From a virus (lineage: Duplodnaviria > Caudoviricetes), in the IMG/VR virus record IMGVR_UViG_3300021091_002229, positions 1,680 to 65,679 of that record: a stretch of DNA of 64,000 bases. One strand, 5' to 3'. The first letter of the stretch is position 1. The number at the start of each line of letters is the position of its first letter. Below, piece by piece: positions 4,710 to 43,571 of the stretch. The notes below the pieces were generated by a model. It was not told the origin of the DNA. It ran no database searches and was given only the letters and a program-made list of their open reading frames with translations. Position numbers and translations under genes: made by a program.

Positions 4710-5168
4710 ATGAGTGAAATAACATTCGAAACATTATTGGCAGCAGTAAATACCAACCCATCGGAATACGAAGAAAAGTATGTCCGATGGGTTTCTATTG
4801 GGTATGACAAAAAAGTTTTGGCAGAATTATTGTATGAATTACAATATCTCAAAGAAAAAGAAGAGTGGCCAGAACGAATTAAATTTTTAGAAGGTATTCT
4901 TGCCCAATATAATCCCCAACATTTATTGAACTTATTAAACGGTGAAACACAAACTACACGGTTTGCGTTAATTGAAAAATGGGCACGTCAAGGCGCGATG
5001 GAAATTCTCATCTTCGACAAATACAGTATTGAAACATTAAATACTGTTACTCAATTTCCATTGGCAGACTATCAACTATATGTAAAACGAGTACAAGAAA
5101 TTACTACGATGATTCGTGAAATCACCAGCCAGGCAGCAACACTAGCATCTGGAGTGGCTGGGTTATGA
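4710..5168 (+). CDS. Hypothetical protein
   Basis: 152-aa ORF with RBS; ATGA overlap with the next gene. Confidence 0.7.
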   Translation: MSEITFETLLAAVNTNPSEYEEKYVRWVSIGYDKKVLAELLYELQYLKEKEEWPERIKFLEGILAQYNPQHLLNLLNGETQTTRFALIEKWARQGAMEILIFDKYSIETLNTVTQFPLADYQLYVKRVQEITTMIREITSQAATLASGVAGL

Positions 5169-5860
5169 AGAACATCTACGATTTGACAATTTGGCAAACC
5201 AGACCCATTAAGTTAGCAATTCTTATTCCGTGTAGAGAATCCGTATATAGTTTATTTACTGCATCCTTAGTAGAGTTGGTCAAGACTACAACGATGGCAG
5301 GAATAGATGTTCATGTCATTTATGACCAAAGTACAATTTTACTTACACAACGAGAACGATTAGCACAACAAGCACTTACGATGAAAGCAGACTATGCGTT
5401 ATGGCTAGATTCGGATATGATGTTTCCAAGTACGACTGCGATGCGTTTAATGGCACATAACGTAGATATTGTATGTTGTAACTATATGAAGCGGTCAGTA
5501 CCACTTCAAACAGTTGCGTATCCAGAACGAGGTGATTGGGAAAATTGGTTACCCTTAGAAGCCGATCAAGAACTTCAAGAAGTTGAAGGGATTGGTATGG
5601 GGTGTATGATGATGAAAACAGAAGTACTGAACAAGCTGGTTCCTCCATACTTTGCCTTTGAATATAAAGATAAAGAATGGCATGGTGAAGATTTCTTTTT
5701 CCAAAGTAAATTACGCAAAGCTGGATATAAGATACTCGTTGATATGAATCTTAGTTTCCAAGTTCGTCATGTAGGACAGTGGGCATTTGGACCGAGTATC
5801 GGTACTAACGAAGAACAAAGAATCAAGAGACATACAAAAAAGGTAAAGAAAAATGGTTAA
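5165..5860 (+). CDS. GT-A fold (GT2-like) glycosyltransferase
   Basis: LAILIP..., ALWLDSDMMF (DxD), GMGCMMMK, HGEDFFF, VRHVG motifs. Confidence 0.8.
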   Translation: MKNIYDLTIWQTRPIKLAILIPCRESVYSLFTASLVELVKTTTMAGIDVHVIYDQSTILLTQRERLAQQALTMKADYALWLDSDMMFPSTTAMRLMAHNVDIVCCNYMKRSVPLQTVAYPERGDWENWLPLEADQELQEVEGIGMGCMMMKTEVLNKLVPPYFAFEYKDKEWHGEDFFFQSKLRKAGYKILVDMNLSFQVRHVGQWAFGPSIGTNEEQRIKRHTKKVKKNG

Positions 5861-6965
5861 TAATGAAACATGGTTAGCGCATAGTGATTTATTTAAAAAA
5901 TATTGGGTAATTGAAACTAAGCCGTGGGTGCGTAGTCTGGGTTGGTTTACTGACTATATGGAAACGGTAAAAGATGCTGATGGCTGGGCACAAGCTGGAG
6001 AAAAAGAACTTTCAGTATTTGATTATGTTCAAATTATTGACCAACCACTGGCAGAAAAGAAACTCTATCGGTGTACTAATCGCGCAACATGGGAACATAT
6101 TTCTGGTCCCGTACTATTTGTTGTTCGTAAAGATTCAGAACAAGTGTTTATTGCAGGATGGGCAGGAGAACGAAAGATTATCGAAAAGATGAAGAAGGAA
6201 AGTGATGATCCGTGGCAGTGGTCAGAAAAAATGATTGTAGAAGTCAATCCAGCATCTGCAATTCAAACAGTGTCAGTAATACGAAAACCCAGAAAGAAAA
6301 ATATACCTCCTGTATTTTTTGTTAGTAATGGTGAAAGTAATGCTGATGAGAATTGGAAGCACTTGACCAAACTGTATTCTAAAGCAGTTCGTATTGATGG
6401 AATTGATGGACGGAGAAAAGCATTTCATCGTTGTGTAGATTTGGCAGGAGAAGCACAGCAGTTCTTCGTCGTTACGGGGAAAACATATGTGACGGATGTA
6501 ACTGTATTTGATTATCCTGTAGAAACTATATCCGATGCGCATATTATCTTTCATGCGAAGAATATGAGTAATAGATTAGAATACGGTCATATGGGTATAG
6601 TGTGTTACAATAGTAATCTTGTACTAAATACACCAGCAAACTTCGGATTAGATTTTACACAATATAGTAAAACTATCACTGTTCCTCATACGGTAAGCGA
6701 AGGGTATTTCGCAACCACTCCATTTGAAGCATGGAGAACCGCATTCCGTGAATCAGTTAAATTAGCGAGTGCATATACTACCGATGCACATTTGTGGTTA
6801 CAACGCTGGACAGCATTCGCGGAAGGAGAAAATGCTGAATGGGTATTAACTGGTGCTCGGGAAGGACAAGAATATGCAGAACAATTTAAAAAGGATAAAG
6901 ACGAGTTAAGAAAGACAGTTGATTGGAATTGGTTGCAAACCAAATTTGAAGAATTTCATGGATGA
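5853..6965 (+). CDS. Phage glycosyltransferase-like protein
   Basis: VFFVSNGESNADENW...DGIDGRRKAFHRC...LEYGHMGI...PFEAWRTAFRESVKL; the position where a DxD would be expected reads VTGK. Confidence 0.5.
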   Translation: MVNNETWLAHSDLFKKYWVIETKPWVRSLGWFTDYMETVKDADGWAQAGEKELSVFDYVQIIDQPLAEKKLYRCTNRATWEHISGPVLFVVRKDSEQVFIAGWAGERKIIEKMKKESDDPWQWSEKMIVEVNPASAIQTVSVIRKPRKKNIPPVFFVSNGESNADENWKHLTKLYSKAVRIDGIDGRRKAFHRCVDLAGEAQQFFVVTGKTYVTDVTVFDYPVETISDAHIIFHAKNMSNRLEYGHMGIVCYNSNLVLNTPANFGLDFTQYSKTITVPHTVSEGYFATTPFEAWRTAFRESVKLASAYTTDAHLWLQRWTAFAEGENAEWVLTGAREGQEYAEQFKKDKDELRKTVDWNWLQTKFEEFHG

Positions 6966-7578
6966 TATATTACTTATAAGTTCTTCTCGTATTATCCAAT
7001 GGATGAATGTTATACGAGATGCTCCATCAGAAATAGAATATAGATTACTAGAGAGCTTTTGGGATAGCCAACTTAGAAGTAAATCGTGGTTAGTAAATAA
7101 TATAAAAAAGTATATGCCCGAATTGTCTGGTAATGTATATATTATGGGTGGATGGTACGGAGTCTTGTCACAATTAATAGTTGACAATTTTCGTACATCC
7201 ATATATAATATTGACTTGGATGCCAGTTGTATTAAATACGGTGGGTTACTTTCTAATCACGACTATAGAATAAAGTTTCTTACAAGAGATATGGCGGAGT
7301 TTAGTAATTATATAAACCCTCAGTTAATAATTAATACAAGCACCGAGCATGTTAAACAAGAAACATATAATTCGTGGCTAGAAAAAGTACCATCGGAAGT
7401 TCCGATAGTTATTCAAGGAAATAATTTTTATGAGTGCTTTGACCATATTAGATGCTTTGATACATTAGAAGAATTTAACACAAACAATTTATTAAAAAAC
7501 ATAGTTTATACTGGTACCTTGGAATGTATGGGACCAAATAAACCATTTCACCGATTTATGACAATAGGATATAAATAA
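6958..7578 (+). CDS. Class I SAM-dependent methyltransferase
   Basis: YIMGGWYG motif I, IDLD acidic motif, INTSTEH; likely start is ATG 6958 overlapping the upstream stop. Confidence 0.75.
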   Translation: MDDILLISSSRIIQWMNVIRDAPSEIEYRLLESFWDSQLRSKSWLVNNIKKYMPELSGNVYIMGGWYGVLSQLIVDNFRTSIYNIDLDASCIKYGGLLSNHDYRIKFLTRDMAEFSNYINPQLIINTSTEHVKQETYNSWLEKVPSEVPIVIQGNNFYECFDHIRCFDTLEEFNTNNLLKNIVYTGTLECMGPNKPFHRFMTIGYK

Positions 7579-7579
7579 T

Positions 7580-8992
7580 ATGGGCGCAACAGACCTGTTT
7601 CAATCCACAAAAAGAAAATTAGATGTTATCAGTCCAACAGCATGCGTAGCTAAGTGGCAACAAGTTACTATTCATTTAGCTAACGGCACAACACATAGTT
7701 GCCATCATCCACGGGTTCACCAAGTTCCGATTGAGGAATTAGAAACTAATCCAAGTGCGTTACATAACACTAAGTATAAAAAAGAGCAAAGAAAGCTTAT
7801 GTTAGAAGGAAAACGTCCGGATGAATGCGATTATTGCTGGAGAGTAGAAGATAATGTAAAGGGAGAACTCGCTGCAGAGGTGTTCAGCGATAGAATAGTA
7901 AAAAGTTCAGAGGAATGGGCATCACGCCACATAGATACTCTTAAACAAGTACCGTGGAATACTAATGTAAATCCATCCTATATGGAAATTGACTTTGATA
8001 CCACATGTAACTTTAAATGTGCATATTGCTCTCCATTATATTCTACAACATGGATGCAAGAGGTTAAGTCACATGGTCCATATAAATTACCGACCGTTAC
8101 ATTTAATGATGTAAGTAATTTAGAAAAAGGTAAAGGATTGCCAATACTTCAATCAGAAGAAAATCCATATATCGATGCATTCTGGAAATGGTGGCCGGAT
8201 GCAGCGAGACATTTACATACTTTTAGAATTACTGGCGGAGAACCGTTATTAAGTAAGCATACTTTTAAAGTACTTGACTTCTTAATCGACAATCCACAAC
8301 CGCATATGGAGTTTAACATTAATAGTAATTTGGGTGGACCTAAAGAAATTATTGACAAATTCATTGAAAAAGTTTCTGTAATTCAAGATAAAAAAGCAGT
8401 TAAGGAATTTAAACTGTTTACTAGTAACGAAGCTCATGATAAGCGCGCAGAATATATTCGTTTTGGTTTAAATTATAATTACTGGTTAAATAATGTTGAT
8501 AGAATTTTAAGTGAAATCCCAGACAGTAGAGTTACTATGATGAGTACATATAACTTATTGTCAGTAACTTCTTACTTAGACTTCTTAAAAGATATGTTAG
8601 AATTAAAGTTACGATACGCGCATCAGAAAAAAAGACAACTTCCACTTGCGGTTGATGTACCATATTTAAGACATCCTGAATTTTTAGCAGCATGGATATT
8701 AACAGAAAACTTCTTAAGTCACATAGAAGAATGTGTTACTTTTATGTATCAAAACCAGCAGTTCGGTAGATGGTATCCTTTGGCGACAAAGGGATTCTAT
8801 GAACACGAAATTCATAGAATGGAGCGTTTATTTTATTTAGTACAACAAAATATGGGTGTAAATAAACCAACCAACATAGAACAAAGAAGAAATTTTGCTG
8901 CGTTTATAGATGAATATGACAAGCGCCGTGGGACAAGTTTTGTAGGGACATTTCCTGAACTAGAAAAATTTTATAGTTTCTGTAAGATTTAA
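7580..8992 (+). CDS. Radical SAM protein with N-terminal SPASM/twitch-like Cys cluster
   Basis: CNFKCAYC (CxxxCxxC), ITGGEP; N-terminal C..KW...SCHH...ECDYCW. Confidence 0.9.
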   Translation: MGATDLFQSTKRKLDVISPTACVAKWQQVTIHLANGTTHSCHHPRVHQVPIEELETNPSALHNTKYKKEQRKLMLEGKRPDECDYCWRVEDNVKGELAAEVFSDRIVKSSEEWASRHIDTLKQVPWNTNVNPSYMEIDFDTTCNFKCAYCSPLYSTTWMQEVKSHGPYKLPTVTFNDVSNLEKGKGLPILQSEENPYIDAFWKWWPDAARHLHTFRITGGEPLLSKHTFKVLDFLIDNPQPHMEFNINSNLGGPKEIIDKFIEKVSVIQDKKAVKEFKLFTSNEAHDKRAEYIRFGLNYNYWLNNVDRILSEIPDSRVTMMSTYNLLSVTSYLDFLKDMLELKLRYAHQKKRQLPLAVDVPYLRHPEFLAAWILTENFLSHIEECVTFMYQNQQFGRWYPLATKGFYEHEIHRMERLFYLVQQNMGVNKPTNIEQRRNFAAFIDEYDKRRGTSFVGTFPELEKFYSFCKI

Positions 8993-8994
8993 AT

Positions 8995-10374
8995 ATGAAA
9001 AAAGTAAATGTTTTATATGAATTCATGACACCAAATGGATTCTTACCGTTCGGGTATGAATTAACAGACTTACCAATAATTTTTAGTGTAATCAATGAAG
9101 ATTTATTTACAAGGGCGCATACTACGACCAGAATAATCAAATCAAATAAATTCGAAGTATCGGCAAACACTGAGGATATTTTTGATGTCATGTCAGAATA
9201 CTTTGAAGGGACGGATAGATTTAATAGAGTATTGATTAAAGATATCAATAGAAAACAACTAAAAAATGATTACAATTTATTTGCGGTAACGCCTCTTCAT
9301 AATGAAAGTATAGTTGAATACGTATCTATATTAAATTTTGAGGATATGTTCAGCAAAAAGTCTTTTCGTTTGTTTGAAGAAGAAGCCAGTGTGAAATTAG
9401 TTTTTATCGATAACAAAGAAGGTGGATATGAATATCCTGATAAATTTTTCGATAATATTTATACTTTTGTAAACAAATATAAATTACAAAGTAATAAAAT
9501 AATCTTCATAACAAATACTTCAAACATAAAAGAAATTTATGAAGATTATTTAAATAGGCATAACATACCTTCGTTTATGATATGCGATTCTATTAATTTT
9601 TGTATATACGGGCAGCCTGGAAAAAATATCATACGATATGAAAATACTACGAACAATTATGAAGCGGATAAAATTATTGAAAGAGAAACGGAATATTCAA
9701 TAAGTTTAGCACCGCATACAAACCTGCGAGAAAAGTATTTTCTTTGTTTAAATAGAAACAGTGGTAGATTTCATAGACCTAAATTAGTATTAGAATTGAT
9801 AAGAAATGGAATATTTGATAAAGGATTGGTTTCTCTATTTAAGTCACAAGAGTTTGATAACTTTTGTGAGAAACTAGAAAACATCCATTTTAAAACACAT
9901 ATCAAAGAAAAGTATCCTTTTATTGTAGACTATGAAGATGCAGACGCTGTAGCTGACATGCACAACTATTTTACGAAAAAAGAAATATGGGACGCTACAT
10001 ATTTTTCGGTGGTTACGGAAAGTTCTACAATACCCAAATCGGTTTTCATTACAGAAAAAGTAGTTAGACCTATGATATATTTTCATCCGTTCATAGTCTA
10101 TGGAAATCCAAATACATTAAAAGAATTGAAAAATATGGGATTTTACACATTCCCAGAATTTTTTGATGAAAGCTATGATACAATAGAAGATGAGAATGAA
10201 AGGTTGAATGCAATTATAGAAAATGTAAAAAGATTATGCGCATTATCAGTAGAAGAATTGCACAACTTATACTGTTCCGTGTATCCAAAGTTAGTTCATA
10301 ATAGAAATTTATTAAGTTCATTGGAAAAAGATAGTTTTGTTGCTAATAAATTTTTACATCTTATAAGTTTATGA
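8995..10374 (+). CDS. Putative glycosyltransferase-like protein, paralogue 1 of 5
   Basis: FLCLNR..RFHR, VVTES..FITEK..PFIVYG..GFYTF..FDESYD motif shared with four other island genes. Confidence 0.5.
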   Translation: MKKVNVLYEFMTPNGFLPFGYELTDLPIIFSVINEDLFTRAHTTTRIIKSNKFEVSANTEDIFDVMSEYFEGTDRFNRVLIKDINRKQLKNDYNLFAVTPLHNESIVEYVSILNFEDMFSKKSFRLFEEEASVKLVFIDNKEGGYEYPDKFFDNIYTFVNKYKLQSNKIIFITNTSNIKEIYEDYLNRHNIPSFMICDSINFCIYGQPGKNIIRYENTTNNYEADKIIERETEYSISLAPHTNLREKYFLCLNRNSGRFHRPKLVLELIRNGIFDKGLVSLFKSQEFDNFCEKLENIHFKTHIKEKYPFIVDYEDADAVADMHNYFTKKEIWDATYFSVVTESSTIPKSVFITEKVVRPMIYFHPFIVYGNPNTLKELKNMGFYTFPEFFDESYDTIEDENERLNAIIENVKRLCALSVEELHNLYCSVYPKLVHNRNLLSSLEKDSFVANKFLHLISL

Positions 10375-12804: not shown

Positions 12805-12808
12805 TCCC

Positions 12809-12837
12809 TTGACATATTTACAAAAACGTGTTATAAT
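12809..12837 (+). promoter_or_regulatory. Consensus sigma70 promoter with extended -10
   Basis: TTGACA(12809)-N17-TATAAT(12832) with TG at 12829; AAGGAGG RBS downstream. Confidence 0.88.
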
Positions 12838-13648: not shown

Positions 13649-13649
13649 A

Positions 13650-14618: not shown

Positions 14619-14619
14619 T

Positions 14620-15804: not shown

Positions 15805-15808
15805 GTTT

Positions 15809-23765: not shown

Positions 23766-23769
23766 TCTT

Positions 23770-31950: not shown

Positions 31951-31963
31951 AACGAAATATTAT

Positions 31964-38759: not shown

Positions 38760-39528
38760 TATTACAAATAAAAAATATCTGGTAACATCTGGTTGCTCTT
38801 TCACAGATGGGTTTAACATGAAAGAAAAGGGAAGTTGGGCTTATTATTTATCTGATATGCTGGGATTGGAATTAATAAACAAAGCACGGGGTGGTAGTGG
38901 AAACGAATATATTTCAGACTCTATAATTATAAAACTTATGAATAACCCTGAAGTAATGGAAAACTGTGTAGTTGGTGTTGCTTGGTCATCTTTTTCAAGA
39001 TTGATGAGTCCTATATATGACGGTACTTGGAATGTGTTGGATACCGTTCAACCGTTTGATTTTATGGACATAAATGGTAGTAAGGGAAAGTATTACGAAC
39101 AGAGAAAAGCAGGAGAAGTATTTTTTAAAGATATACTTTTTTGTGTTTATAAAACTTATATGGCAATAGCAAAACTAAATCATTTTTTAGATTTGTATAA
39201 AATTCCTTATTTTTATATGGACGCGATATCACCAAATAAAGTAAAAAGAACGGATAGTGAAGTGCATATTATAGGTATGCACGAATCTGTTCTGACTATT
39301 GATGCAAAGGCTTGGCCAAATCAATATAGAGATGTCATCAATGATACTTTTAATTCTACTATATTTAAAAATTATTTAAATATTAATGGGCATACAACAA
39401 TATCTGAATTCATATTTACCGACTATAACAAGTATCAGAGTGGAAATCCCGGCCACCCCAACGATATAGCATCTATAGAAGTTGCAAAATCTATTTGTAA
39501 TCAAATTGAATTTATGAGATTGACATGA
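38749..39528 (+). CDS. SGNH-like protein, paralogue 7 of 7
   Basis: SGCSFTDG, INKARGGSGNEYI, VAWS..R, GHPN. Confidence 0.7.
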   Translation: MKIDITNKKYLVTSGCSFTDGFNMKEKGSWAYYLSDMLGLELINKARGGSGNEYISDSIIIKLMNNPEVMENCVVGVAWSSFSRLMSPIYDGTWNVLDTVQPFDFMDINGSKGKYYEQRKAGEVFFKDILFCVYKTYMAIAKLNHFLDLYKIPYFYMDAISPNKVKRTDSEVHIIGMHESVLTIDAKAWPNQYRDVINDTFNSTIFKNYLNINGHTTISEFIFTDYNKYQSGNPGHPNDIASIEVAKSICNQIEFMRLT

Positions 39529-39746
39529 CAGTTCACGTAAAAAGACACATAGTTAAGGCAATTACTTACAGAATAGTAGGCACCTTGACAACATTCATCA
39601 TTTCGTATATATTTACGGGTAGCATATCTCTATCATCAGCGATAGGAGTTACTGAGTTAGTAGTAAAACCCGTCAATTATTTTTTACACGAACGGGTGTG
39701 GTATAAGTGGATAAAATTTGGTCTTACTAATAAGAACAAGGATTGA
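39525..39746 (+). CDS. DUF2061-like small membrane protein
   Basis: KRHIVKAITYRIVGT...YFLHERVW. Confidence 0.75.
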   Translation: MTVHVKRHIVKAITYRIVGTLTTFIISYIFTGSISLSSAIGVTELVVKPVNYFLHERVWYKWIKFGLTNKNKD

Positions 39747-39749: not shown

Positions 39750-40514
39750 ATGAGAATTTTGATTATGGGATTGCCTGGGTCTGGAAAGACCACATTATCT
39801 AAAGTATTAGCGGAAAAGTTAGGCGCTGCCTATTTTAACGCAGATGAAGTGCGAAAACAATTTAATGATTGGGACTTTTCTGAAACGGGTCGCAAACGTC
39901 AAGCCCATCGGATGCGTGAACTGTGTGATATGGTTGAGACTCATCACGTGGTAGCAGATTTCGTTTGCCCCACAGAACAGACCCGTGAATTCTTTGCACC
40001 AGATTTCGTTGTGTTTATGAATACGATAGACGCTGGACGGTTCGAGGATACCAATAGAGTGTTTGAGGTACCCGAAAAGGTAAACGTATTGGTGAATGGA
40101 TGGATAGACCCAAATGCACAAGCAGACATCATTATTGAACAAATTAAGAAAGCGGACGTACAGTTTGGTTGGCAGAACCCGACGGGTCTTATGATAGGTC
40201 GGTTCCAACCATTTCACGATGGACATTTGAAGTTATTTGAGACTATTTTGGAAAAGGAAGGTCAGGTACTCATCGCCATTCGGGATACCTACAATACCGA
40301 CGAAAAGAATCCATTCAATTATGTCGAAGTGGTTGAAGGTATCCATAAGAAACTGGAAGATAAGTATAGTGGAAAATACTATATAATATCGGTCCCAAAC
40401 ATCACAGGCGTTTATTATGGTCGAGATGTGGGGTATAAGGTAGAAAAAATCAATCTTGACCCTCAAACTGAATCCATTTCCGCCACCCAAATTCGAAAGG
40501 AAATGGGTAAATAA
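39750..40514 (+). CDS. Adenylyl-sulfate kinase (CysC)-like domain fused to an HxGH nucleotidyltransferase domain
   Basis: MGLPGSGKTT, NADEVR, DFS..GR, DFVCP; then GRFQPFHDGH...ISATQIR. Confidence 0.82.
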   Translation: MRILIMGLPGSGKTTLSKVLAEKLGAAYFNADEVRKQFNDWDFSETGRKRQAHRMRELCDMVETHHVVADFVCPTEQTREFFAPDFVVFMNTIDAGRFEDTNRVFEVPEKVNVLVNGWIDPNAQADIIIEQIKKADVQFGWQNPTGLMIGRFQPFHDGHLKLFETILEKEGQVLIAIRDTYNTDEKNPFNYVEVVEGIHKKLEDKYSGKYYIISVPNITGVYYGRDVGYKVEKINLDPQTESISATQIRKEMGK

Positions 40515-40532: not shown

Positions 40533-41108
40533 ATGAGTTTGTACATACCAGAGGATTGTAATAAAATTCACCTTCTTTTTTCAGGAGGTGCCGATAGCAC
40601 AATACTCTTGTATTTGTTGTTGTTGGAACAACAAAAAAAGCCAGAGTTAGAAATTAAGTGTTATGGACTAATGATGGCCAAGCCAACCACAAAATTTTCT
40701 AGATGTGTAAGTATTTTAAATGTATTAGAACATCAGTTTGAAAACAAAATACCCTTTAAAAACTTCGATAAAAAATTTATTCTTAGAGAATTTGCAGAAT
40801 TAATATTATCGGTTGAACCTGGTTATGTGTTTTCTGGTTGTAATAAAGTATTGGGTTTTCTAGAACCAACAAATTATATTGAGGGGGATACTCCACCCGT
40901 CCGCGGAGAACCTTTCAATAAGTTTCATATACGACCATTTATAAACATGGATAAGGCAGAAATAATATCTTACTACATCCAACATAATGTATTGAACTTG
41001 TTGAATATGACACATTCGTGTGGGTATGATATGGAAACGCCTTGTGGTGGTTGTTATTTTTGTTTAGAACGGAAATGGGGACTACACAAATGTGGTCTAA
41101 ATATTTAA
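40533..41108 (+). CDS. QueC-like PP-loop ATPase
   Basis: LLFSGGADST; RPFINMDKAEI; THSC...PCGGCYFCLER zinc motif. Confidence 0.75.
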   Translation: MSLYIPEDCNKIHLLFSGGADSTILLYLLLLEQQKKPELEIKCYGLMMAKPTTKFSRCVSILNVLEHQFENKIPFKNFDKKFILREFAELILSVEPGYVFSGCNKVLGFLEPTNYIEGDTPPVRGEPFNKFHIRPFINMDKAEIISYYIQHNVLNLLNMTHSCGYDMETPCGGCYFCLERKWGLHKCGLNI

Positions 41109-41127: not shown

Positions 41128-42636
41128 ATGGCAAAGTATGTAATATCTTATGATAAAAATGTAGATTTTTCAACATTACAATCTTCGTTAACAACTTCTG
41201 GTTGTACAATCGTTGATGTATTTGAATCATTAGGTGCGTTGACCGTAGAAGCATCAAATACAGATTTTTCATCAGTATCGGGTGTATTGGATTATGAAAT
41301 AGAATCTCAAATAACTGTAAATGCTCAATGGCACTTAAACAGAATTTGTAGCGAAACCTTACCTATGCGTAAGATTTACCTTTCACGCAACAAAGGATTA
41401 GGAAGTACGGTATATCTGGTGGATTCTGGAGTAGATGCTACGCACCCAGAACTTTCCAACGCAGACATTCAAAATTTATGGAGTTGGAATGGAGATTTTA
41501 CAGACACCAATGGCCACGGAACTGGGTTGGCAAGTATTTTGGTTGGTACAAATTTAGGTGTATCTACCCAAACAACTTTAAAAAGTGTAAAAATTCCTCT
41601 AGGTCAATCGATACCTGTATCAATATTATTGAATGCATTTAATGTTATACTAAATGACCATTTATTAACATCTGGCCTTAAGGTTGTTAATTGTTCGTGG
41701 ACTATTCCAAAGAGTTTAATTTTAGATAATAAAATCACAGAATTACAACAACAGGGACTAGTTGTGGTTGCGGCGGCAGGTAATGAAATAGCAGAAGCTA
41801 ATACATTATCTCCTGTTGGATTAAATACTGTACTTGGTGTTGCTGCATCAGATGCATATGATAGAGTTATTTCGTGGGCAACTGGCGTTGGTAGTAACTG
41901 GGGTCCCGACGTAGATATTACCGCACCAGGAATCGATATAGAATTGGCTAAACTAGATGGTACTACTGAAGTAAAGTCGGGTACATCTATTGCTGCAGCG
42001 GTTGTCGCTGGGGCAGCATGCCAGTACATAGTAGATAATCCGTCCGTAACATCGTCTGCGGTTATACGAGATATGATACTTACTGATGCAAAAGAAGATA
42101 TGTTATTTAGAAATGAAAGTATTTATGGAACTACTCCTAATAGATTATTACATATTCCATTTACTGATTTGATTATTTCTCCAACAAAAGAAGATAGAAT
42201 TATTTATGTACAAAAAGGAACTACAGTAACACTTCCACTAGAGTTATCACCGATTGTGGGCTCATTAAACATTGATGATGTTGTTGCTGGCGCATCACGA
42301 AGAACAGCACCATCTTGGGTAACCCTAACAGATAATACTTTAACAGTATCTCCCCCAGCAACCATAGAAGATTCTGGCATTTATGTATTGGAAATAGATA
42401 TTTTAAATGATAGCAATGTTTCTATTGGATACACACAGATTATGATAAAGGTATATCAATCGTCTATAGAAGAATTAGACGGCAGAGACATATATTTTTA
42501 TCACAAAATAGACGAAAACGAAAATGTGGTTGTACTACAATCATTCTGCGGAGGATTCTGCACCAATAATACCACCTGTGTTAATTCCGGTGGGAAGAAC
42601 TGTGGATGTGCTGGTTATGGTTGTGCATCAGACTAA
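41128..42636 (+). CDS. Subtilisin-like S8 serine protease with prodomain, Ig-like domain and Cys-rich tail
   Basis: VDSG (Asp), NGHGT (His), AAAGN, APG, SGTSIAA (Ser): intact triad; terminal six-Cys segment. Confidence 0.9.
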   Translation: MAKYVISYDKNVDFSTLQSSLTTSGCTIVDVFESLGALTVEASNTDFSSVSGVLDYEIESQITVNAQWHLNRICSETLPMRKIYLSRNKGLGSTVYLVDSGVDATHPELSNADIQNLWSWNGDFTDTNGHGTGLASILVGTNLGVSTQTTLKSVKIPLGQSIPVSILLNAFNVILNDHLLTSGLKVVNCSWTIPKSLILDNKITELQQQGLVVVAAAGNEIAEANTLSPVGLNTVLGVAASDAYDRVISWATGVGSNWGPDVDITAPGIDIELAKLDGTTEVKSGTSIAAAVVAGAACQYIVDNPSVTSSAVIRDMILTDAKEDMLFRNESIYGTTPNRLLHIPFTDLIISPTKEDRIIYVQKGTTVTLPLELSPIVGSLNIDDVVAGASRRTAPSWVTLTDNTLTVSPPATIEDSGIYVLEIDILNDSNVSIGYTQIMIKVYQSSIEELDGRDIYFYHKIDENENVVVLQSFCGGFCTNNTTCVNSGGKNCGCAGYGCASD

Positions 42637-42648
42637 TACACAATTTTT

Positions 42649-43335
42649 ATGGTTTTGACATCGTTACATGATAGTAAACAATATTTTTGGATAAAGGTTC
42701 CTCGAACCGCAACACAAGCATTTAGTAAGTTTTTTACTAAATATGTTCCAAAAGAACCAGGAATTCCTGATGACATACATAGACATTTTTCTTATTTGGA
42801 ATTGCAAGAACTATATAATCAAAAATTACCAGCGATTAGTGTAGTTCGTCACCCTGTGTCAAGATTCAAGTCTATTATATATTATCTTGCGGAGAGACAC
42901 TCTAATACACAATCTAGTGCAAAGTTATTATGGGAATCTACTGAAAGTTGTGTGAATTTTTTAAACACTGTGTTTGACCGCAATTGTGAACTTAAAGGAG
43001 CATCGATTCCTAGTATTTTTCTAGATACAGATGTTACTGAATTTATACCTATACGAAATTTTATAAACGCAACAGCTTCTTTTTTTAGAACTCAAGCAGA
43101 ATATGCATATCATCCAAAAGTTAAAATATTTCATTACGAAAGGTTGAATGAGTTTATCGAGTGGATAGATACATCATTGGGATATGATACAAGTAGAATA
43201 TATAGATTTAATGCTAGTGTAGAAAGCACCCAGATAAATGTAGACTTTACTCACCCAGAATTTGTAAAAACAATAGAAAACTTATATTATATCGATTATA
43301 AAGTTTTTGGTTATCCGTTGCGGTATCTATTATGA
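42649..43335 (+). CDS. Sulfotransferase family 2 (carbohydrate sulfotransferase-like)
   Basis: IKVPRTATQ (5'-PSB), VRHPVSRFKS (3'-PB), Y..DY..FGY. Confidence 0.78.
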   Translation: MVLTSLHDSKQYFWIKVPRTATQAFSKFFTKYVPKEPGIPDDIHRHFSYLELQELYNQKLPAISVVRHPVSRFKSIIYYLAERHSNTQSSAKLLWESTESCVNFLNTVFDRNCELKGASIPSIFLDTDVTEFIPIRNFINATASFFRTQAEYAYHPKVKIFHYERLNEFIEWIDTSLGYDTSRIYRFNASVESTQINVDFTHPEFVKTIENLYYIDYKVFGYPLRYLL

Positions 43336-43571
43336 ACATTCCAAATATATCTGAAATAGTTGTAGCTTGGCACCGAGCAAGAAAGCCAACACCAGAACAA
43401 AAAGAAATCGCAGAGTATCGGGCATCTGTTTGTGATGCTTGTGAGTTTAAAGAATTTAAAACTCTGGTTAGGACATATACTTGTAGAGCATGTGGGTGCC
43501 CTATATCAAAAAAAGTTTATAGTCCATTATCTGGATTGAAAGCATGTCCTAAATCAAAATGGGAACGATAA
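43332..43571 (+). CDS. Small Cys-rich putative metal-binding protein
   Basis: R..VCDAC...CRACGC...CPKSKW. Confidence 0.7.
   Translation: MNIPNISEIVVAWHRARKPTPEQKEIAEYRASVCDACEFKEFKTLVRTYTCRACGCPISKKVYSPLSGLKACPKSKWER

What the first reader, a model, noticed from the sequence alone, without database searches (positions are those of the whole stretch)
4710..43571. 39-kb phage biosynthetic island: candidate pathway for a heavily decorated glycan
Seen: about 45 co-oriented, mostly overlapping or abutting genes inserted between virion genes, almost all sugar-synthesis or tailoring enzymes: three SDR epimerases, RmlC, ThDP subunits, aminotransferase, amidinotransferase, carbamoyltransferase, two methyltransferases, APS kinase plus sulfotransferase, two 2OG oxygenases, four radical SAM enzymes, about 8 GT-like and 7 SGNH-like proteins. 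Established: these families build and decorate O-antigens, Nod factors and aminoglycosides, and virion glycosylation is known in some mycobacteriophages and giant viruses. Inference: the phage makes its own rare sugar(s) and attaches amidino, carbamoyl, sulfate, methyl and acyl groups to virion fibres, the host surface or DNA. I know of no characterised phage pathway of this breadth. No Wzx/Wzy/ABC export genes are visible, which favours a cytoplasmic acceptor.
Basis: partly seen in the sequence, partly recalled or inferred. Interest (0 to 1): 0.9.

Follow-up and report, generated by a model that had tools for sequence, protein, structure and literature searches.

The report
Phage sugar-building island beside tail fibres
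An uncultured lake phage carries, right behind its serine/threonine-rich tail-fibre genes, a real 39-kb block of about 44 soluble sugar-making, sugar-attaching and sugar-decorating enzyme genes; islands of this kind have been described in other aquatic phages, but what they decorate has never been measured.

Summary
Window 4710-43571 has 44 co-oriented ORFs, and 35 of 41 junctions overlap or lie within 12 nt. Most family calls are confirmed: 3 SDRs, RmlC, a split E1-like ThDP pair, a StrB1-like amidinotransferase, a carbamoyltransferase, 2 2OG oxygenases and 4 radical SAM enzymes. Seven proteins are assigned to GT families: Anp1-like o5165; the modelled GT-A/nucleotidyltransferase-type domain of o5853; and five paralogues of an unannotated family whose one modelled member, o8995, is GT-B. 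The 'APS kinase/sulfation' and 'SGNH' labels are not confirmed.

Seven related contigs keep the island between the same flanks. It is mosaic: precursor enzymes are about 88% identical and transferases about 63%. A core cassette (GT-B, 2 SDRs, ThDP pair, RmlC, N-twitch radical SAM) recurs in 71 viral loci with unrelated flanks, so co-occurrence is not random.

There are no membrane, export or priming enzymes. The island carries the same sigma-70-like promoter as the replication genes.

The closest known kind is the fibre-adjacent hypervariable 'host recognition cluster' of pelagi- and cyanomyophages (PMC7029224). This scan has noted similar islands on other DNA.

The acceptor is unproven. I favour the phage's own Gly-Ser/Thr collagen-like fibres (about 0.4), then the host envelope (about 0.3). 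Verdict: a new variant of a known kind, interest 0.55.

The parts
1047..2225 (+). Context: fibre-type protein o1047 (392 aa)
   Evidence: Pfam Phage_T7_tail N-terminal domain, E 6.6e-8. PHROG virion structural protein, weak.
2295..4445 (+). Context and candidate acceptor: tail fibre o2295 (716 aa) with two Gly-X-Y tracts (41 and 26 triplets; X/Y are 61% Ser, 29% Thr) and a C-terminal S74 chaperone domain
   Evidence: Pfam Collagen and Peptidase_S74. Many PHROG tail-fibre families. Tracts counted. Six of the seven related contigs, all that cover the fibre region, have such fibres just upstream of the island.
4650..4678 (+). Sigma-70-like promoter before the first island gene (TTGACA, 17 nt, TATATT; part of ACTTGACAAA)
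   Evidence: The exact 10-mer occurs 4 times against 0.29 expected. The other three sites precede replication genes. The promoter-like pattern is conserved before the o4710 orthologue in 6 related contigs.
4710..5168 (+). o4710, 152 aa, unknown; conserved 5' core
   Evidence: No Pfam, NCBIfam or PHROG hit. 86-97% identical in the 6 contigs that cover the place.
5165..5860 (+). o5165, Anp1-like (GT-A type) glycosyltransferase
   Evidence: Pfam PF03452, E 8.8e-7, 29.1 bits against a cut-off of 28.8. 63-96% identical in relatives.
5853..6965 (+). o5853, 370 aa; the C-domain (149-370) has a GT-A / nucleotide-diphospho-sugar transferase fold; the N-terminal 148 aa are unmodelled
   Evidence: AlphaFold model: C-domain blocks at pLDDT 67-96, residues 1-148 below 50. 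Foldseek top hits are all GT-A enzymes, E 3e-5. VIA Z 10.8 to STIV A197, with GT-A enzymes and sugar-phosphate nucleotidyltransferases mixed. Two homologues sit beside the radical SAM gene of Ralstonia phage RsoM2USA.
6919..7578 (+). o6919, 219 aa, unknown (a Rossmann methyltransferase-like motif read by eye)
   Evidence: No family hit. Homologue in RsoM2USA next to the radical SAM gene. Present in 8 of 71 distant loci. Sequence read.
7580..8992 (+). o7580, radical SAM enzyme with an N-terminal twitch domain
   Evidence: NCBIfam NF033640, 310.9 bits (cut-off 170). CxxxCxxC at residue 143. Present in 45 of 71 distant loci. No PDB sequence relative.
8995..10374 (+). o8995, paralogue 1 of the unannotated GT-B family (A1)
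   Evidence: Model pLDDT 86.7. GT-B hits: Foldseek to GtfA, SdgB and T4 BGT at E about 1e-5. VIA Z 11.9 to 6eji, 11.7 to T4 BGT, 11.1 to an alpha-1,3-fucosyltransferase. No Pfam hit. No match in 50,697 GenBank phage records.
10371..11819 (+). o10371, A1 GT-B paralogue 2
   Evidence: BLASTP to o8995 and o18430, E 1e-21 to 1e-22. Alignment A1.
11797..12804 (+). o11797, amidinotransferase (StrB1 / AGAT family)
   Evidence: Profile against PDB: inosamine-phosphate amidinotransferase 1bwd, E 1.9e-104 over 2-326; also HsvA, SxtG and AGAT. C-terminal GGPHC.
12809..12837 (+). Perfect sigma-70 consensus promoter (TTGACA, 17 nt, TG-TATAAT) in the 61-nt gap before o12866
   Evidence: 12 of 12 matches. 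Conserved before the orthologue in G001, G002, G003 and G005.
12866..13648 (+). o12866, PhyH-type Fe/2OG dioxygenase
   Evidence: Pfam PF05721, E 3.2e-18. Gained and lost together with o11797 in relatives.
13599..14618 (+). o13599, SDR NDP-sugar epimerase/dehydratase
   Evidence: Pfam Epimerase, E 2.3e-31; GDP_Man_Dehyd, E 5.4e-22. Present in 37 of 71 distant loci.
14554..15171 (+). o14554, RmlC-like 3,5-epimerase
   Evidence: Pfam dTDP_sugar_isom, E 4.8e-33. Present in 38 of 71 distant loci.
15172..15804 (+). o15172, minimal E1-alpha-like ThDP (PP domain) subunit, 210 aa
   Evidence: Pfam E1_dh, E 1.6e-14. NCBIfam PDH E1 alpha, far below the cut-off. Present in 44 of 71 distant loci, up to 79% identical. 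Adjacent to the beta-like gene in MAG contig L114.
15809..17008 (+). o15809, radical SAM enzyme (no specific subfamily)
   Evidence: Pfam Radical_SAM, E 2.2e-12. All NCBIfam hits are far below their cut-offs. It moves as a trio with o17005 and o17435: all three are present in G001-G004, absent from G005, and found in 4 of 71 distant loci.
17005..17478 (+). o17005, HAD phosphatase
   Evidence: Pfam HAD_PNKP, E 5.8e-19.
17435..18433 (+). o17435, 332 aa, unknown; HAD-like only as a lead
   Evidence: No family or PDB hit. Atlas feature hits at 0.94 and 0.93 to clusters auto-named 'HAD family hydrolase'.
18430..19647 (+). o18430, A1 GT-B paralogue 3
   Evidence: 309 metagenomic relatives; none of the 120 listed has a Pfam domain or a name other than 'hypothetical protein'.
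19637..20602 (+). o19637, SDR epimerase/reductase
   Evidence: Pfam Epimerase, E 9.5e-39. Present in 63 of 71 distant loci, up to 90% identical.
20606..21589 (+). o20606, SDR epimerase/reductase
   Evidence: Pfam Epimerase, E 1.5e-43. Present in 64 of 71 distant loci, up to 85% identical.
21586..22101 (+). o21586, minimal E1-beta-like ThDP (Pyr domain) subunit, 171 aa
   Evidence: Pfam Transket_pyr, E 4.3e-7. NCBIfam PDH E1 beta, below the cut-off. Present in 50 of 71 distant loci.
   Evidence: No hit in Pfam, NCBIfam or PHROGs. 48-51% identical in relatives.
22986..23765 (+). o22986, class I SAM methyltransferase
   Evidence: Pfam Methyltransf_24, E 2.5e-16. Present only in G003 and G005 among relatives.
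23707..24900 (+). o23707, A1 GT-B paralogue 4
25038..26306 (+). o25038, second N-terminal-twitch radical SAM enzyme
   Evidence: NCBIfam NF033640, 314.7 bits. Pfam SPASM plus Radical_SAM. Present in 44 of 71 distant loci.
26314..27225 (+). o26314, member of paralogue family A2 (G-x-S ... GHP; 'SGNH-like' unconfirmed)
   Evidence: BLASTP links. Alignment A2. DUF6071, E 2.4e-4, below the cut-off.
27222..27950 (+). o27222, A2 family member
   Evidence: DUF6071, E 1e-4, below the cut-off. Alignment A2.
27856..28884 (+). o27856, unknown; DUF7796-like
   Evidence: Pfam DUF7796, E 8.7e-6, below the cut-off. phrog_13607 (unknown function), E 9.3e-11. No full-length counterpart in the relatives; only a 24-residue match in G001/G002.
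28914..30545 (+). o28914, carbamoyltransferase (NodU/CmcH/TobZ-type, two domains)
   Evidence: Pfam Carbam_trans_N, E 8.2e-62, and Carbam_trans_C, E 5.8e-57. A copy is present in all 7 related contigs: 82-91% identical in four, 36-42% in three.
30462..30490 (+). Promoter-like site (TTGACA, 17 nt, TACATT) inside the end of o28914, before o30555
   Evidence: The same site is found in G001 and G002.
30555..30959 (+). o30555, 134 aa, unknown, very conserved
   Evidence: No informative family or PDB hit. 82-97% identical in relatives. Present in 17 of 71 distant loci at up to 84% identity. A 26% homologue lies in MAG contig L114 next to the cassette.
30961..31950 (+). o30961, A2 family member
31931..32173 (+). 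o31931, small DUF2061 membrane protein
   Evidence: Pfam DUF2061, E 5e-5. One hydrophobic segment.
32170..33372 (+). o32170, A1 GT-B paralogue 5
33347..33976 (+). o33347, short (209 aa) DegT/DnrJ/EryC1-like protein
   Evidence: Pfam PF01041, E 1.7e-23, two stretches. The short length is conserved in relatives (209-212 aa aligned).
33973..34668 (+). o33973, A2 family member
   Evidence: Present only in G001 and G002 among relatives.
34673..35710 (+). o34673, A2 family member
35713..36060 (+). o35713, 115 aa, small protein with two hydrophobic segments
   Evidence: No family hit.
36062..36841 (+). o36062, Fe/2OG oxygenase
   Evidence: Pfam 2OG-FeII_Oxy_3, E 9.1e-13.
36810..38759 (+). o36810, cobalamin-dependent radical SAM C-methyltransferase (TokK/CysS/KedN5-like)
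   Evidence: PDB sequence search: TokK E 7.9e-76, CysS E 2.3e-63. NCBIfam KedN5 family, 252.9 bits, below the cut-off of 700. Among relatives only G003 has the orthologue.
38749..39528 (+). o38749, A2 family member
39525..39746 (+). Small DUF2061 protein (73 aa)
   Evidence: Pfam DUF2061, E 1.5e-20.
39585..39613 (+). Promoter-like site (TTGACA, 17 nt, TATATT) before the 3' module
   Evidence: Conserved in G001, G002, G003 and G005.
39750..40514 (+). o39750, P-loop kinase fused to an HxGH nucleotidyltransferase (NMNAT/cytidylyltransferase-like)
   Evidence: Pfam AAA_18, AAA_33, CTP_transf_like, and APS_kinase weakly at E 9.1e-6. NCBIfam NMNAT, E 6e-12. GLPGSGKT and GRFQPFHDGH motifs.
40533..41108 (+). 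o40533, PP-loop ATPase with a QueC-like Cys-rich C-terminus
   Evidence: Pfam QueC, E 2.4e-9 (C-terminal 55 residues only). SGGADS motif. Only 41-43% identical in most relatives.
41128..42636 (+). o41128, subtilisin-like S8 protease with an intact Asp/His/Ser signature and a Cys-rich tail
   Evidence: Pfam Peptidase_S8, E 1.3e-24. Motifs read. 44-68% identical in relatives.
42649..43335 (+). o42649, possible sulfotransferase-fold protein (weak)
   Evidence: Pfam Sulfotransfer_2, E 0.005, below the cut-off. PHROG 3347 'Galactose-3-O-sulfotransferase', E 3.3e-5.
43332..43571 (+). 79-aa ORF, unknown
   Evidence: Only a sub-threshold FYVE hit.

Best explanation
The block is a modular, phage-encoded glycan factory that works in the host cytoplasm. 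It belongs to the fibre-adjacent hypervariable islands known from aquatic T4-like phages.

Shown:
- It holds an NDP-sugar cassette of three SDRs, an RmlC-like epimerase and a minimal two-subunit E1-like ThDP enzyme.
- It holds seven proteins assigned to glycosyltransferase families: an Anp1-like protein, a GT-A/nucleotidyltransferase-fold domain, and five paralogues of an unannotated family whose modelled member is GT-B.
- It holds tailoring enzymes: a StrB1-like amidinotransferase, a carbamoyltransferase, two Fe/2OG oxygenases, a methyltransferase, a TokK-like B12 radical SAM methylase, two N-twitch radical SAM enzymes and a further radical SAM enzyme.
- All of these enzymes are soluble. No priming, flipping or export protein is encoded.
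- The cassette travels between unrelated phages as a unit. The transferases diverge much faster than the precursor enzymes.
- The island carries the same sigma-70-like promoter as the replication genes.

Inferred:
- The cassette makes a 6-deoxy sugar, probably with a two-carbon branch.
- The transferases build a short, strain-variable oligosaccharide.
- The tailoring enzymes add guanidino, carbamoyl, methyl and hydroxyl groups.
- The enzymes are made early in infection.
- The most likely acceptor is the phage's own proline-free Gly-Ser/Thr collagen-like tail fibres, encoded immediately upstream in every relative that covers that region. The fibres would be O-glycosylated before assembly.

The 3' module (kinase-nucleotidyltransferase, PP-loop enzyme, S8 protease, sulfotransferase-like protein) is specific to this lineage and may do something separate.
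For: Families and folds.

Soluble enzymes: no membrane-like segment in any enzyme ORF. No Bac_transf match in 5 related records.

Synteny: the island lies between the same flanks in 7 related contigs, is collinear in 4, and gains and loses modules. The variant islands are also glycan-type: G006 has a UDP-Glc/GDP-Man dehydrogenase, GT-B paralogues and a carbamoyltransferase.

Co-occurrence in 71 A1-bearing viral loci whose flanks share none of this phage's structural genes and only two weak replication-gene matches:
- o20606 in 64, o19637 in 63;
- ThDP beta in 50, ThDP alpha in 44;
- N-twitch radical SAM in 45, RmlC in 38.
The alpha and beta ThDP genes are adjacent in a MAG contig.

Divergence against G001, G003 and G005: precursor enzymes 87.9% identical, GT-B paralogues 62.6%, replication flank 90.7%. 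This is the pattern of glycan-diversifying loci.

Fibres: six of the seven related contigs (all that reach the fibre region) plus the window have 1-3 fibre ORFs just upstream with 26-210 Gly-X-Y triplets whose X/Y positions are about 70-94% Ser+Thr.

Fold neighbours of the GT-B model include the protein O-glycosyltransferases GtfA and SdgB. Neighbours of the GT-A-type domain include the PBCV-1 capsid-glycosylating enzyme and the peptide glycosyltransferases SunS and ThuS. These are fold-level resemblances only.

Promoters.
Against: - No measurement of any glycan exists, and no RNA data were available.
- The mobile cassette is not generally linked to Ser/Thr-rich fibres. Only 2 of 75 A1-bearing loci, both close relatives, have a collagen-like ORF within 10 kb. 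None of 71 distant loci has a Ser/Thr-rich ORF of at least 300 aa.
- The island uses the replication-gene promoter type. The TATTTATAT motif seen before three structural genes is not found before any island gene. That fits host take-over or DNA modification as well as it fits early stocking of enzymes.
- The GT-B fold is equally close to DNA glucosyltransferases and lipid- or glycan-acting enzymes.
- Soluble glycosyltransferases also build O-antigens on undecaprenyl carriers, so the lack of export genes does not exclude the host surface.
- The module turnover suggests several products rather than one.
Confidence: 0.42

Rival explanations
1. Host-envelope remodelling. The soluble phage enzymes extend or decorate host undecaprenyl-linked O-antigen, capsule or S-layer glycan intermediates. 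The host's own flippase and ligase export the product. The infected cell's surface then changes early in infection and blocks superinfection or grazing. This is the function proposed in the literature for such islands.
For: - This is the proposal for pelagimyophage and cyanophage islands (PMC7029224, passages; PMC1079782, passages; PMC12801897, passages).
- The island has early-type, replication-like promoters.
- The cassette occurs in many phages without Ser/Thr-rich fibres nearby.
- A cassette relative sits in an alphaproteobacterial MAG contig.
- Fold neighbours include LPS and O-antigen glycosyltransferases (WaaB, WaaG, WbnH).
Against: - No priming phosphoglycosyltransferase, flippase, polymerase, ligase or ABC exporter was found.
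- The phage would need the host's flippase to accept a foreign, heavily decorated unit.
- The phage looks lytic, and no integrase is seen in the window, so a slow surface change has little time to pay off.
- The island is fixed beside the fibre genes in every relative that covers that region.
Confidence: 0.28
2. A hypervariable parking lot. The island is not one pathway. It is a set of independent cassettes that accumulate in a recombination-permissive region and have different targets: an NDP-sugar cassette, a radical SAM / GT-A core, an amidinotransferase-dioxygenase pair, and a kinase / PP-loop / protease module.
For: - Modules are gained and lost independently between close relatives. The o15809-o17005-o17435 trio, the o11797-o12866 pair, o22986 and o36810 each vary on their own.
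- At least four internal promoters are present.
- The 3' module occurs in only 1 of 71 distant loci, while the sugar cassette occurs in most.
- The o5853 / radical SAM / o6919 trio occurs on its own in Ralstonia phage RsoM2USA.
- o39750 resembles NAD-salvage enzymes.
Against: - 35 of 41 junctions overlap or lie within 12 nt.
- Nearly all recognisable genes are carbohydrate-related, including in the variant islands.
- O-antigen loci show the same modular turnover and still make one product.
Confidence: 0.15
3. A small-molecule product. The island makes an aminoglycoside-like pseudo-oligosaccharide or another soluble glycoside that acts on the host or on competing phages.
For: - The best PDB relative of o11797 is the streptomycin enzyme StrB1 (E 1.9e-104).
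- A carbamoyltransferase, a DegT-like protein, B12 and twitch-type radical SAM enzymes, RmlC, SDRs and a HAD phosphatase are all classes that occur in aminoglycoside clusters. That association is from my recollection.
- No acceptor-priming enzyme is encoded.
Against: - No inositol-phosphate or 2-deoxy-scyllo-inosose synthase family was hit in any ORF.
- Seven GT-type proteins and seven unexplained paralogous proteins are too many for a pseudo-trisaccharide.
- The amidinotransferase is an accessory module: it occurs in 6 of 71 distant loci and is absent from three relatives.
- No resistance or export gene is present.
Confidence: 0.07
4. DNA hypermodification. The glycosyltransferases decorate hydroxymethylated or otherwise modified bases of the phage genome with a complex glycan to evade restriction.
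For: - The GT-B model is as close to T4 beta-glucosyltransferase (Z 11.7), T4 alpha-glucosyltransferase (Z 9.9) and the phage HY126 glycosyltransferase (Z 9.7) as to anything else.
- The promoters are shared with the replication genes.
- A QueC-like PP-loop enzyme is present.
- Diverse DNA glycans made by viral glycosyltransferases are reported (Pyle et al. 2024; seen only as a citation in PMC12619734).
Against: - No thymidylate-synthase-like hydroxymethylase and no TGT/DpdA was found in 5 related records. These are fragments, 15-42% complete, so the absence is weak evidence.
- The island sits in the fibre module.
- The range of sugar-tailoring enzymes exceeds any known DNA glycan.
Confidence: 0.05

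Closest known systems
Host recognition cluster (HRC) of pelagimyophages and cyanomyophages (Zaragoza-Solas et al. 2020, PMC7029224; passages read)
   Same: Both are large (mean 44.6 and 34.2 kb) non-syntenic islands inside the structural region, next to tail-fibre genes. Both hold glycosyltransferases, LPS-type sugar genes and radical SAM cassettes that come and go between close relatives. In both the function is untested.
   Different: - The lineage differs. The nearest isolate is Microcystis phage Mel-JY01 at 51.5% RecA identity, and it lacks the island in its first 100 kb.
- The VrlC and gp14 landmarks were not identified here.
- The GT-B family here has no match in any of 50,697 GenBank phage records.
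- The amidinotransferase, carbamoyltransferase, ThDP pair and N-twitch radical SAM content is not described in the passages I read.
- The authors favour host O-chain modification.
LPS / cell-wall gene clusters of large cyanomyophages (P-SSM2: 24 genes, PMC1079782; S-SCSM2R: 22 genes with 13 glycosyltransferases, PMC12801897)
   Same: Lytic T4-like aquatic phages carry dozens of epimerase, RmlC and glycosyltransferase genes. The target is unknown, and host-surface change is the usual proposal.
   Different: This is a single contiguous 39-kb block of 44 genes. It has radical SAM, ThDP, amidino and carbamoyl chemistry, and its glycosyltransferase families differ.
Virus-encoded virion glycosylation: mycobacteriophage capsid and tail-tube glycans (Freeman et al. 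2023; seen only as cited and paraphrased in PMC12619734; the paper itself is not held) and Megavirinae fibril glycosylation clusters (PMC10117803; abstract start in the search listing)
   Same: The virus's own sugar-nucleotide and transferase genes decorate its own particle. In Megavirinae the clusters are clade-specific and make rare bacterial-like sugars for surface fibrils.
   Different: Those glycans were measured and this one was not. The mycobacteriophage systems have few genes. Here the candidate acceptor is a Gly-Ser/Thr collagen-like tail fibre.
Bacterial O-antigen / capsule loci (Wzx/Wzy- or ABC-dependent)
   Same: NDP-sugar genes sit with transferases and tailoring enzymes in one co-oriented, low-GC, mosaic locus between conserved flanks. 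The transferases diverge fastest.
   Different: There is no priming phosphoglycosyltransferase, flippase, polymerase, chain-length regulator or ABC transporter.
E1-like two-subunit ThDP enzymes of branched-sugar pathways (AviB1/AviB2 of avilamycin; YerE of yersiniose as a functional analogue). Both are recalled; no paper was read.
   Same: A PP-domain subunit and a Pyr-domain subunit sit among NDP-4-keto-sugar enzymes, with no E2 or E3 partner.
   Different: The subunits here are much shorter (210 and 171 aa) and lie about 6 kb apart. No activity has been tested.

Membership tests
Fibre-adjacent hypervariable island (HRC type) of aquatic myophages | Lies in the structural region next to tail-fibre genes | tested here: met
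   Tail fibres o1047 and o2295 lie directly upstream. Baseplate genes lie downstream after four unknown ORFs and an SNF2 helicase.
Fibre-adjacent hypervariable island (HRC type) of aquatic myophages | Variable gene content between relatives while the flanks stay conserved | tested here: met
   Seven related contigs. Flanks are 80-99% identical. Island modules are gained and lost, and two alternative island versions of 23 and 30 ORFs exist.
Fibre-adjacent hypervariable island (HRC type) of aquatic myophages | Holds glycosyltransferases, LPS-type sugar genes and radical SAM cassettes | tested here: met
Fibre-adjacent hypervariable island (HRC type) of aquatic myophages | Placed between VrlC and neck protein gp14 of a pelagi- or cyanomyophage | tested here: inconclusive
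   No VrlC or gp14 family appeared among the window's Pfam and PHROG hits. The contig is about 21% of a genome. The nearest isolate is Mel-JY01, not a pelagi- or cyanomyophage.
Wzx/Wzy- or ABC-dependent surface-polysaccharide locus | Priming phosphoglycosyltransferase (Bac_transf or WecA type) | tested here: not met
   PF02397 matched in 0 of 5 related records, and the control matched in 9 of 14 genomes. No membrane-like segment in any enzyme ORF.
Wzx/Wzy- or ABC-dependent surface-polysaccharide locus | Flippase, polymerase or ABC exporter | tested here: not met
   No such Pfam family in the 42 larger ORFs. Only three small proteins have hydrophobic segments or a membrane-protein family: o31931, o35713 and the 73-aa DUF2061 ORF.
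GT-B glycosyltransferases (paralogue family A1) | Two Rossmann-like domains with top structural matches to GT-B enzymes | tested here: met
   o8995 model, pLDDT 86.7. All top Foldseek and VIA hits are GT-B enzymes, Z up to 11.9 over 291 residues. Only 1 of the 5 paralogues was modelled; the others are linked by BLASTP.
CAZy GT10 alpha-1,3-fucosyltransferases | Sequence-level membership | tested here: inconclusive
   VIA Z 11.1 and 10.7 to 5zoi and FUT9, with the lowest rmsd (4.2). No Pfam hit. The profile found no PDB sequence at E up to 1. The motif resemblance is recalled only.
Amidinotransferases (StrB1 / AGAT, guanidino-group-modifying superfamily) | Full-length sequence similarity and the C-terminal Cys motif | tested here: met
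   Profile against 1bwd, E 1.9e-104 over 2-326 of 327 positions; AGAT, E 1e-59. GGPHC is invariant in 4 of 4 aligned sequences. The catalytic role of the Cys is recalled.
PAPS synthesis plus sulfotransferase module | APS kinase, ATP sulfurylase and sulfotransferase domains above family thresholds | tested here: inconclusive
   - APS_kinase scored 26.2 bits over the P-loop part only; NCBIfam apsK models are far below their cut-offs.
- No ATP-sulfurylase family was hit. The C-domain scores best as NMNAT/cytidylyltransferase-like.
- Sulfotransfer_2, E 0.005, is below the cut-off; PHROG 3347 gives E 3.3e-5.
SGNH/GDSL hydrolases (paralogue family A2) | Match to an SGNH family or fold | tested here: inconclusive
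   No GDSL-type Pfam hit in 6 of 6 members at E up to 1; 2 of 6 hit DUF6071 below the cut-off. The PDB profile search gave only E 0.26 to a lysophospholipase L1-like esterase. G-x-S and GHP motifs are invariant. No structure was predicted.
RiPP biosynthetic cluster | Precursor peptide plus a maturase above equivalog thresholds | tested here: not met
   Radical SAM hits to PapB, ScmE and similar score 43 bits or less against cut-offs of 340 or more. The small ORFs are DUF2061 or unknown. No precursor was recognised.
Virion glycosylation systems | Glycan demonstrated on a virion protein | not testable with these tools
   This needs virions or co-expression. Only the adjacency of Ser/Thr-rich fibres is shown.
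Phage DNA glycosylation | Base hydroxymethylase or base-exchange enzyme in the genome | tested here: inconclusive
   PF00303 and PF01702 matched in 0 of 5 records, but the records are 15-42% complete.

The most novel reading that the evidence does not exclude
The phage O-glycosylates its own proline-free Gly-Ser/Thr collagen-like tail fibres with a strain-variable, hyper-decorated oligosaccharide, in effect an 'O-antigen' on the receptor-binding organelle. The glycan would contain a two-carbon-branched deoxysugar and guanidino, carbamoyl and C-methyl groups. It would be built by a glycosyltransferase family unknown outside metagenomes. The fast-evolving transferases would tune host recognition or shield the fibre.
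Probability: 0.35. Interest if true: 0.8.

Novelty: new variant of a known kind. Interest (0 to 1): 0.55.

Why it matters
Large aquatic phages spend 10-20% of their coding capacity on such islands, yet no product or target has been measured for any of them. This example is unusually complete and offers clear experimental handles.

- It has a mobile core cassette found in dozens of unrelated phage contigs.
- It has a glycosyltransferase family with 309 metagenomic members and no annotation.
- It has a StrB1-like amidinotransferase, which would put a guanidino group on a sugar.
- It has an obvious candidate acceptor next door.

If the fibres are the target, phage host range in lakes would depend on a hidden glycan layer that evolves like a bacterial O-antigen. 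If the host surface is the target, lytic phages would re-serotype their hosts within one infection cycle. In either case the enzymes are a source of rare-sugar chemistry.

Tried and rejected
DNA-level relatives: megablast of 20 kb of flank and 24 kb of island against GenBank phages gave no match.

Profile searches against PDB sequences:
- no hit at E up to 1 for the A1 GT-B family and the o5853 C-domain;
- only chance-level hits (E 0.14-0.36) for A2, o30555 and o17435.
o7580 has no PDB sequence relative. o15809 has only a weak radical SAM core hit.

NCBIfam and PHROGs found nothing for 10 and 8 of 10 unknown ORFs. Atlas feature searches gave only leads.

T4 late promoter TATAAATA: 11 sites against 12.6 expected, so rejected as a signal. 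TATTTATAT lies 30-42 nt before three structural genes, but 6 sites against 4.2 expected is not above chance; I keep it only as a note.

Test for a general link between the GT-B family and collagen-like or Ser/Thr-rich fibres: negative outside the close relatives (2 of 75; 0 of 71).

Mel-JY01: the flank is collinear but no island homologue lies in its first 100 kb. I did not fetch the other 90 kb.

Sequencing runs: 24 runs hold the DNA or part of it. All but one are labelled lake or other fresh water; one small-share run is labelled drinking water. No RNA holder is listed. I laid no reads.

Rejected readings:
- RiPP cluster: no precursor, and maturase hits are far below their cut-offs.

I ran no complex-prediction job, because an enzyme-substrate pair is a poor case for it.

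Literature: no held paper contains Mel-JY01. None contains phage, amidinotransferase, carbamoyltransferase, glycosyltransferase and radical SAM together. Supplements were closed and not consulted. The gene tables of PMC7029224 might list related families.

Full report
What the DNA is.

The window is bases 1680-65679 of a 65.7-kb IMG/VR virus contig that CheckV rates about 21% complete. It has no DNA-level match in 50,697 GenBank phage records. Its RecA-like protein is closest to Microcystis phage Mel-JY01, a 190-kb myovirus, at 51.5% identity. The baseplate-to-helicase flank is collinear with Mel-JY01, but no island gene has a homologue in that phage's first 100 kb apart from a weak HAD match. 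Twenty-four public runs hold the DNA or part of it. All but one are labelled lake or other fresh water (one small-share run is labelled drinking water), and none is on record as RNA.

The flanks are phage genes. Upstream lie a T7-fibre-like protein and a 716-aa collagen/S74-chaperone tail fibre. Downstream lie four unknown ORFs, an SNF2 helicase, baseplate proteins, an M23 tail lysin, a PolA-like protein, gp32-like and RecA-like proteins, a 5'-3' exonuclease and a DnaB-like helicase.

Checking the observation.

From 4710 to 43571 there are 44 + strand ORFs: 42 of at least 80 aa plus two small ones. Of the 41 junctions between the larger ORFs, 22 overlap and 13 are 0-12 nt apart. G+C is lower inside the island (0.30-0.39 per 2 kb) than in the flanks (mostly 0.37-0.44).

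- three SDRs, RmlC, E1-alpha-like and E1-beta-like ThDP subunits, a PhyH and a second Fe/2OG oxygenase, Methyltransf_24, a two-domain carbamoyltransferase, and four radical SAM enzymes;
- two of the radical SAM enzymes belong to the N-terminal-twitch subfamily NF033640 at about 311 and 315 bits;
- the B12-dependent radical SAM enzyme matches TokK (E 7.9e-76) and CysS;
- the amidinotransferase call, weak in Pfam, became very strong with a small profile: StrB1 inosamine-phosphate amidinotransferase, E 1.9e-104 over the full length.

The glycosyltransferase count is 7 with support:
- o5165 is Anp1-like, just over the Pfam cut-off.
- The o5853 C-domain folds as a GT-A/nucleotidyltransferase-type domain.
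- Five paralogues form a family with no Pfam domain. One member, modelled at pLDDT 86.7, is a clear GT-B enzyme.

Three labels fail or stay open:
- 'APS kinase' is a generic P-loop kinase fused to an NMNAT/cytidylyltransferase-like HxGH domain.
- The 'sulfotransferase' rests on a sub-threshold Pfam hit and one PHROG hit.
- The six 'SGNH-like' paralogues are real paralogues with G-x-S and GHP motifs, but no SGNH family or structure matched. The seventh, o22103, has no hit at all.

Is it more than chance?

A protein just downstream of the island found six related contigs, and the GT-B profile found a seventh. I fetched all seven whole and compared every window ORF with them.

- All seven contigs keep the island-to-downstream junction, and the six that reach the fibre region keep the fibre-to-island junction. 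G007 begins inside the island.
- Four contigs (two are the same phage) are collinear with the window but differ by whole modules.
  - The radical SAM / HAD / o17435 trio is absent from one.
  - The methyltransferase is present in two.
  - The B12 radical SAM enzyme is present in one.
  - Several A2 paralogues are private to single contigs.
- Three contigs carry alternative islands of 30 and 23 ORFs. These keep the 5' core (o4710, o5165, o5853, o6919, N-twitch radical SAM) and the 3' module (kinase-nucleotidyltransferase, PP-loop, S8 protease, sulfotransferase-like).
- The 23-ORF version replaces the sugar cassette with a UDP-Glc/GDP-Man dehydrogenase and four further N-twitch-like radical SAM genes, making five.
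- Against three relatives, precursor and tailoring enzymes average 87.9% identity, close to the replication flank (90.7%). The GT-B paralogues average 62.6% and the A2 paralogues 65.6%.

The GT-B profile also confirmed 338 of 446 candidate stretches in IMG/VR. I examined 71 kept loci from phages whose flanks share none of this phage's structural genes and only two weak replication-gene matches. In these loci the island genes co-occur strongly:
- the two SDRs o20606 and o19637 in 64 and 63 loci, up to 85-90% identical;
- ThDP beta in 50 and ThDP alpha in 44;
- the N-twitch radical SAM enzymes in 45 and 44;
- RmlC in 38 and o13599 in 37;
- o5853 in 18, o30555 in 17, the carbamoyltransferase in 15, the B12 radical SAM enzyme in 12.

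So a core cassette moves between phage lineages as a unit. An alphaproteobacterial MAG contig holds a 44-55% identical version with the two ThDP genes adjacent.

The GT-B family has 309 metagenomic relatives. None of the 120 listed has a Pfam domain or a name beyond 'hypothetical protein'. The family is absent from all GenBank phage records at E 1e-3. The N-twitch radical SAM enzyme occurs in one GenBank phage, Ralstonia jumbo phage RsoM2USA. There it sits between two o5853-like genes and an o6919-like gene, downstream of a 2,540-aa protein.

How it probably works.

All enzymes are predicted soluble. Only three small proteins have hydrophobic segments or belong to a membrane-protein family. 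No priming phosphoglycosyltransferase, flippase, polymerase or ABC exporter is present. Assembly is therefore cytoplasmic, on a soluble or membrane-peripheral acceptor.

I infer three steps:
- The SDR / RmlC / ThDP cassette turns an NDP-4-keto-6-deoxyhexose into a two-carbon-branched deoxysugar. The precedent, AviB1/B2 and YerE, is recalled and was not read.
- The GT-A-type and GT-B proteins build a short oligosaccharide.
- The amidinotransferase, carbamoyltransferase, oxygenases and methylases decorate it.

Transcription.

A 10-mer, ACTTGACAAA, occurs four times, all on the + strand, against 0.29 expected (0 of 100 shuffles reached 4). One copy is the -35 region of a sigma-70-like promoter before the first island gene. 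The other three precede the PolA-like, gp32-like and helicase genes.

The looser pattern CTTGACA-N17-TAnnnT appears at matching positions in the relatives. It lies before o4710 in six of them, and before o12866 and o39750 in four each. In the window and G001/G002 it also lies before o30555. The site before o12866 is a perfect extended consensus. The island therefore shares its promoter class with the replication genes. By contrast, three structural genes have TATTTATAT 30-42 nt upstream, though that motif is not above chance overall. I read this as early or middle expression. That reading is an inference, and no RNA data exist.

The acceptor.

For the fibre:
- The window and all six relatives that reach the fibre region have one to three fibre ORFs directly upstream of the island. 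These hold 26 to 210 Gly-X-Y triplets whose X/Y positions are about 70-94% Ser+Thr and essentially proline-free.
- Structural neighbours of the two modelled transferases include protein and peptide glycosyltransferases: GtfA, SdgB, SunS/ThuS and the PBCV-1 capsid enzyme.

Against the fibre:
- These are only fold resemblances. DNA- and LPS-acting enzymes score alike.
- Outside this lineage the cassette is not near collagen-like or Ser/Thr-rich ORFs (2 of 75; 0 of 71; flanks limited to 10 kb).
- The promoters are of the replication type.

The host-surface reading proposed in the literature stays serious. DNA glycosylation is unlikely but not excluded, because no hydroxymethylase or DpdA was found only in incomplete records. 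A small-molecule product is suggested by the StrB1 match alone.

Comparison with what is known.

Zaragoza-Solas et al. (PMC7029224, passages read) described a 'host recognition cluster'. It is a hypervariable island inside the structural module of pelagimyophages (mean 44.6 kb) and cyanomyophages (mean 34.2 kb). It holds tail fibres, glycosyltransferases, LPS-related genes and radical SAM cassettes that differ between close relatives.

P-SSM2 has 24 LPS-type genes (PMC1079782) and S-SCSM2R has 22 with 13 glycosyltransferases (PMC12801897). So the kind is known genomically, and its function is untested.

This scan's own notes list at least 15 similar islands on other DNA, with the same closest-known system, and the same ThDP/SDR cassette in dozens of windows. 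I had reached the HRC paper and the co-occurrence result independently.

What is new here:
- the phage lineage;
- the size and contiguity of the block;
- the unannotated GT-B family;
- the strongly supported amidinotransferase;
- the definition of a mobile core cassette;
- the replication-type promoters.

Verdict.

This is a new variant of a known kind. Interest is 0.55. The boldest reading still open, a strain-variable decorated glycan on the phage's own collagen-like fibres, has a probability of about 0.35.

Noticed in passing
window 4648-4657, 57595-57604, 59398-59407, 62447-62456: The exact 10-mer ACTTGACAAA occurs 4 times on the + strand (0.29 expected). Each copy forms the -35 part of a sigma-70-like promoter, before the island and before the PolA-like, gp32-like and helicase genes. 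The looser promoter pattern recurs at matching positions in the related contigs.
   Followed up: yes
window 2259-2267, 43724-43732, 48664-48672: TATTTATAT lies 30-42 nt upstream of the start codons of the tail fibre o2295, o43754 and the baseplate gene o48706. It is a candidate late-promoter box, but its overall count (6 against 4.2 expected) is not above chance.
   Followed up: partly
window 41128-42636: The S8 subtilase has an intact Asp/His/Ser signature, no signal peptide, a propeptide-like N-terminus and a Cys-rich C-terminal tail. It is only 44-68% identical between relatives whose flanks are above 90%. Its role is unknown.
   Followed up: partly
L113 (Ralstonia phage RsoM2USA MG752970.1, record 215949-219688): A four-gene group (o5853-like, N-twitch radical SAM, o5853-like, o6919-like) sits downstream of a 2,540-aa protein in a soil jumbo phage. 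All four genes are annotated as hypothetical. It looks like a minimal version of the island's 5' core.
   Followed up: partly
window 33347-33976: The DegT/DnrJ/EryC1-like protein is only 209 aa, against about 370 aa for the family by my recollection. The short form is conserved in four relatives, so it is not a fresh truncation.
   Followed up: partly
window 39750-40514: This is a P-loop kinase fused to an NMNAT-like HxGH domain (GRFQPFHDGH). The architecture recalls NadR-type NAD salvage rather than PAPS synthesis. It is 91-93% identical in G001/G002 and G006/G007 but only 66-69% in G003 and G005.
   Followed up: partly
L106-L107 (G006) and L109-L110 (G007), island region: This alternative 23-ORF island has five N-twitch-like radical SAM genes, a 740-aa B12 radical SAM enzyme, two PP-loop genes and a UDP-Glc/GDP-Man dehydrogenase. 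It has no SDR/RmlC/ThDP cassette.
   Followed up: partly
L114 (alphaproteobacterial MAG contig), about 8000-17000: A version of the SDR / ThDP-alpha / ThDP-beta / PhyH / o30555 cassette lies on a contig binned as a bacterium, with the two ThDP genes adjacent. I did not determine whether the contig is bacterial or a mis-binned phage.
   Followed up: no
window 30555-30959: This 134-aa protein has no family or PDB relative. It is 82-97% identical in relatives and up to 84% identical in unrelated phages, making it one of the most conserved island genes. It is probably an essential small enzyme or subunit of the sugar cassette.
   Followed up: partly
window 8995-33372 versus 12866-21589: The GT-B paralogues have G+C of 0.28-0.31. 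The precursor enzymes have 0.32-0.43 and the replication flank mostly 0.36-0.47. This low-GC transferase pattern is familiar from O-antigen loci.
   Followed up: partly
L002 (Mel-JY01 3065-13162): In Mel-JY01 a structural protein that shares the o2295 N-terminus is followed by a 1,226-aa 'FkbM methyltransferase' protein and a 639-aa cytidylyltransferase-like protein. This may be a small fibre-adjacent modification set in the nearest isolate.
   Followed up: no
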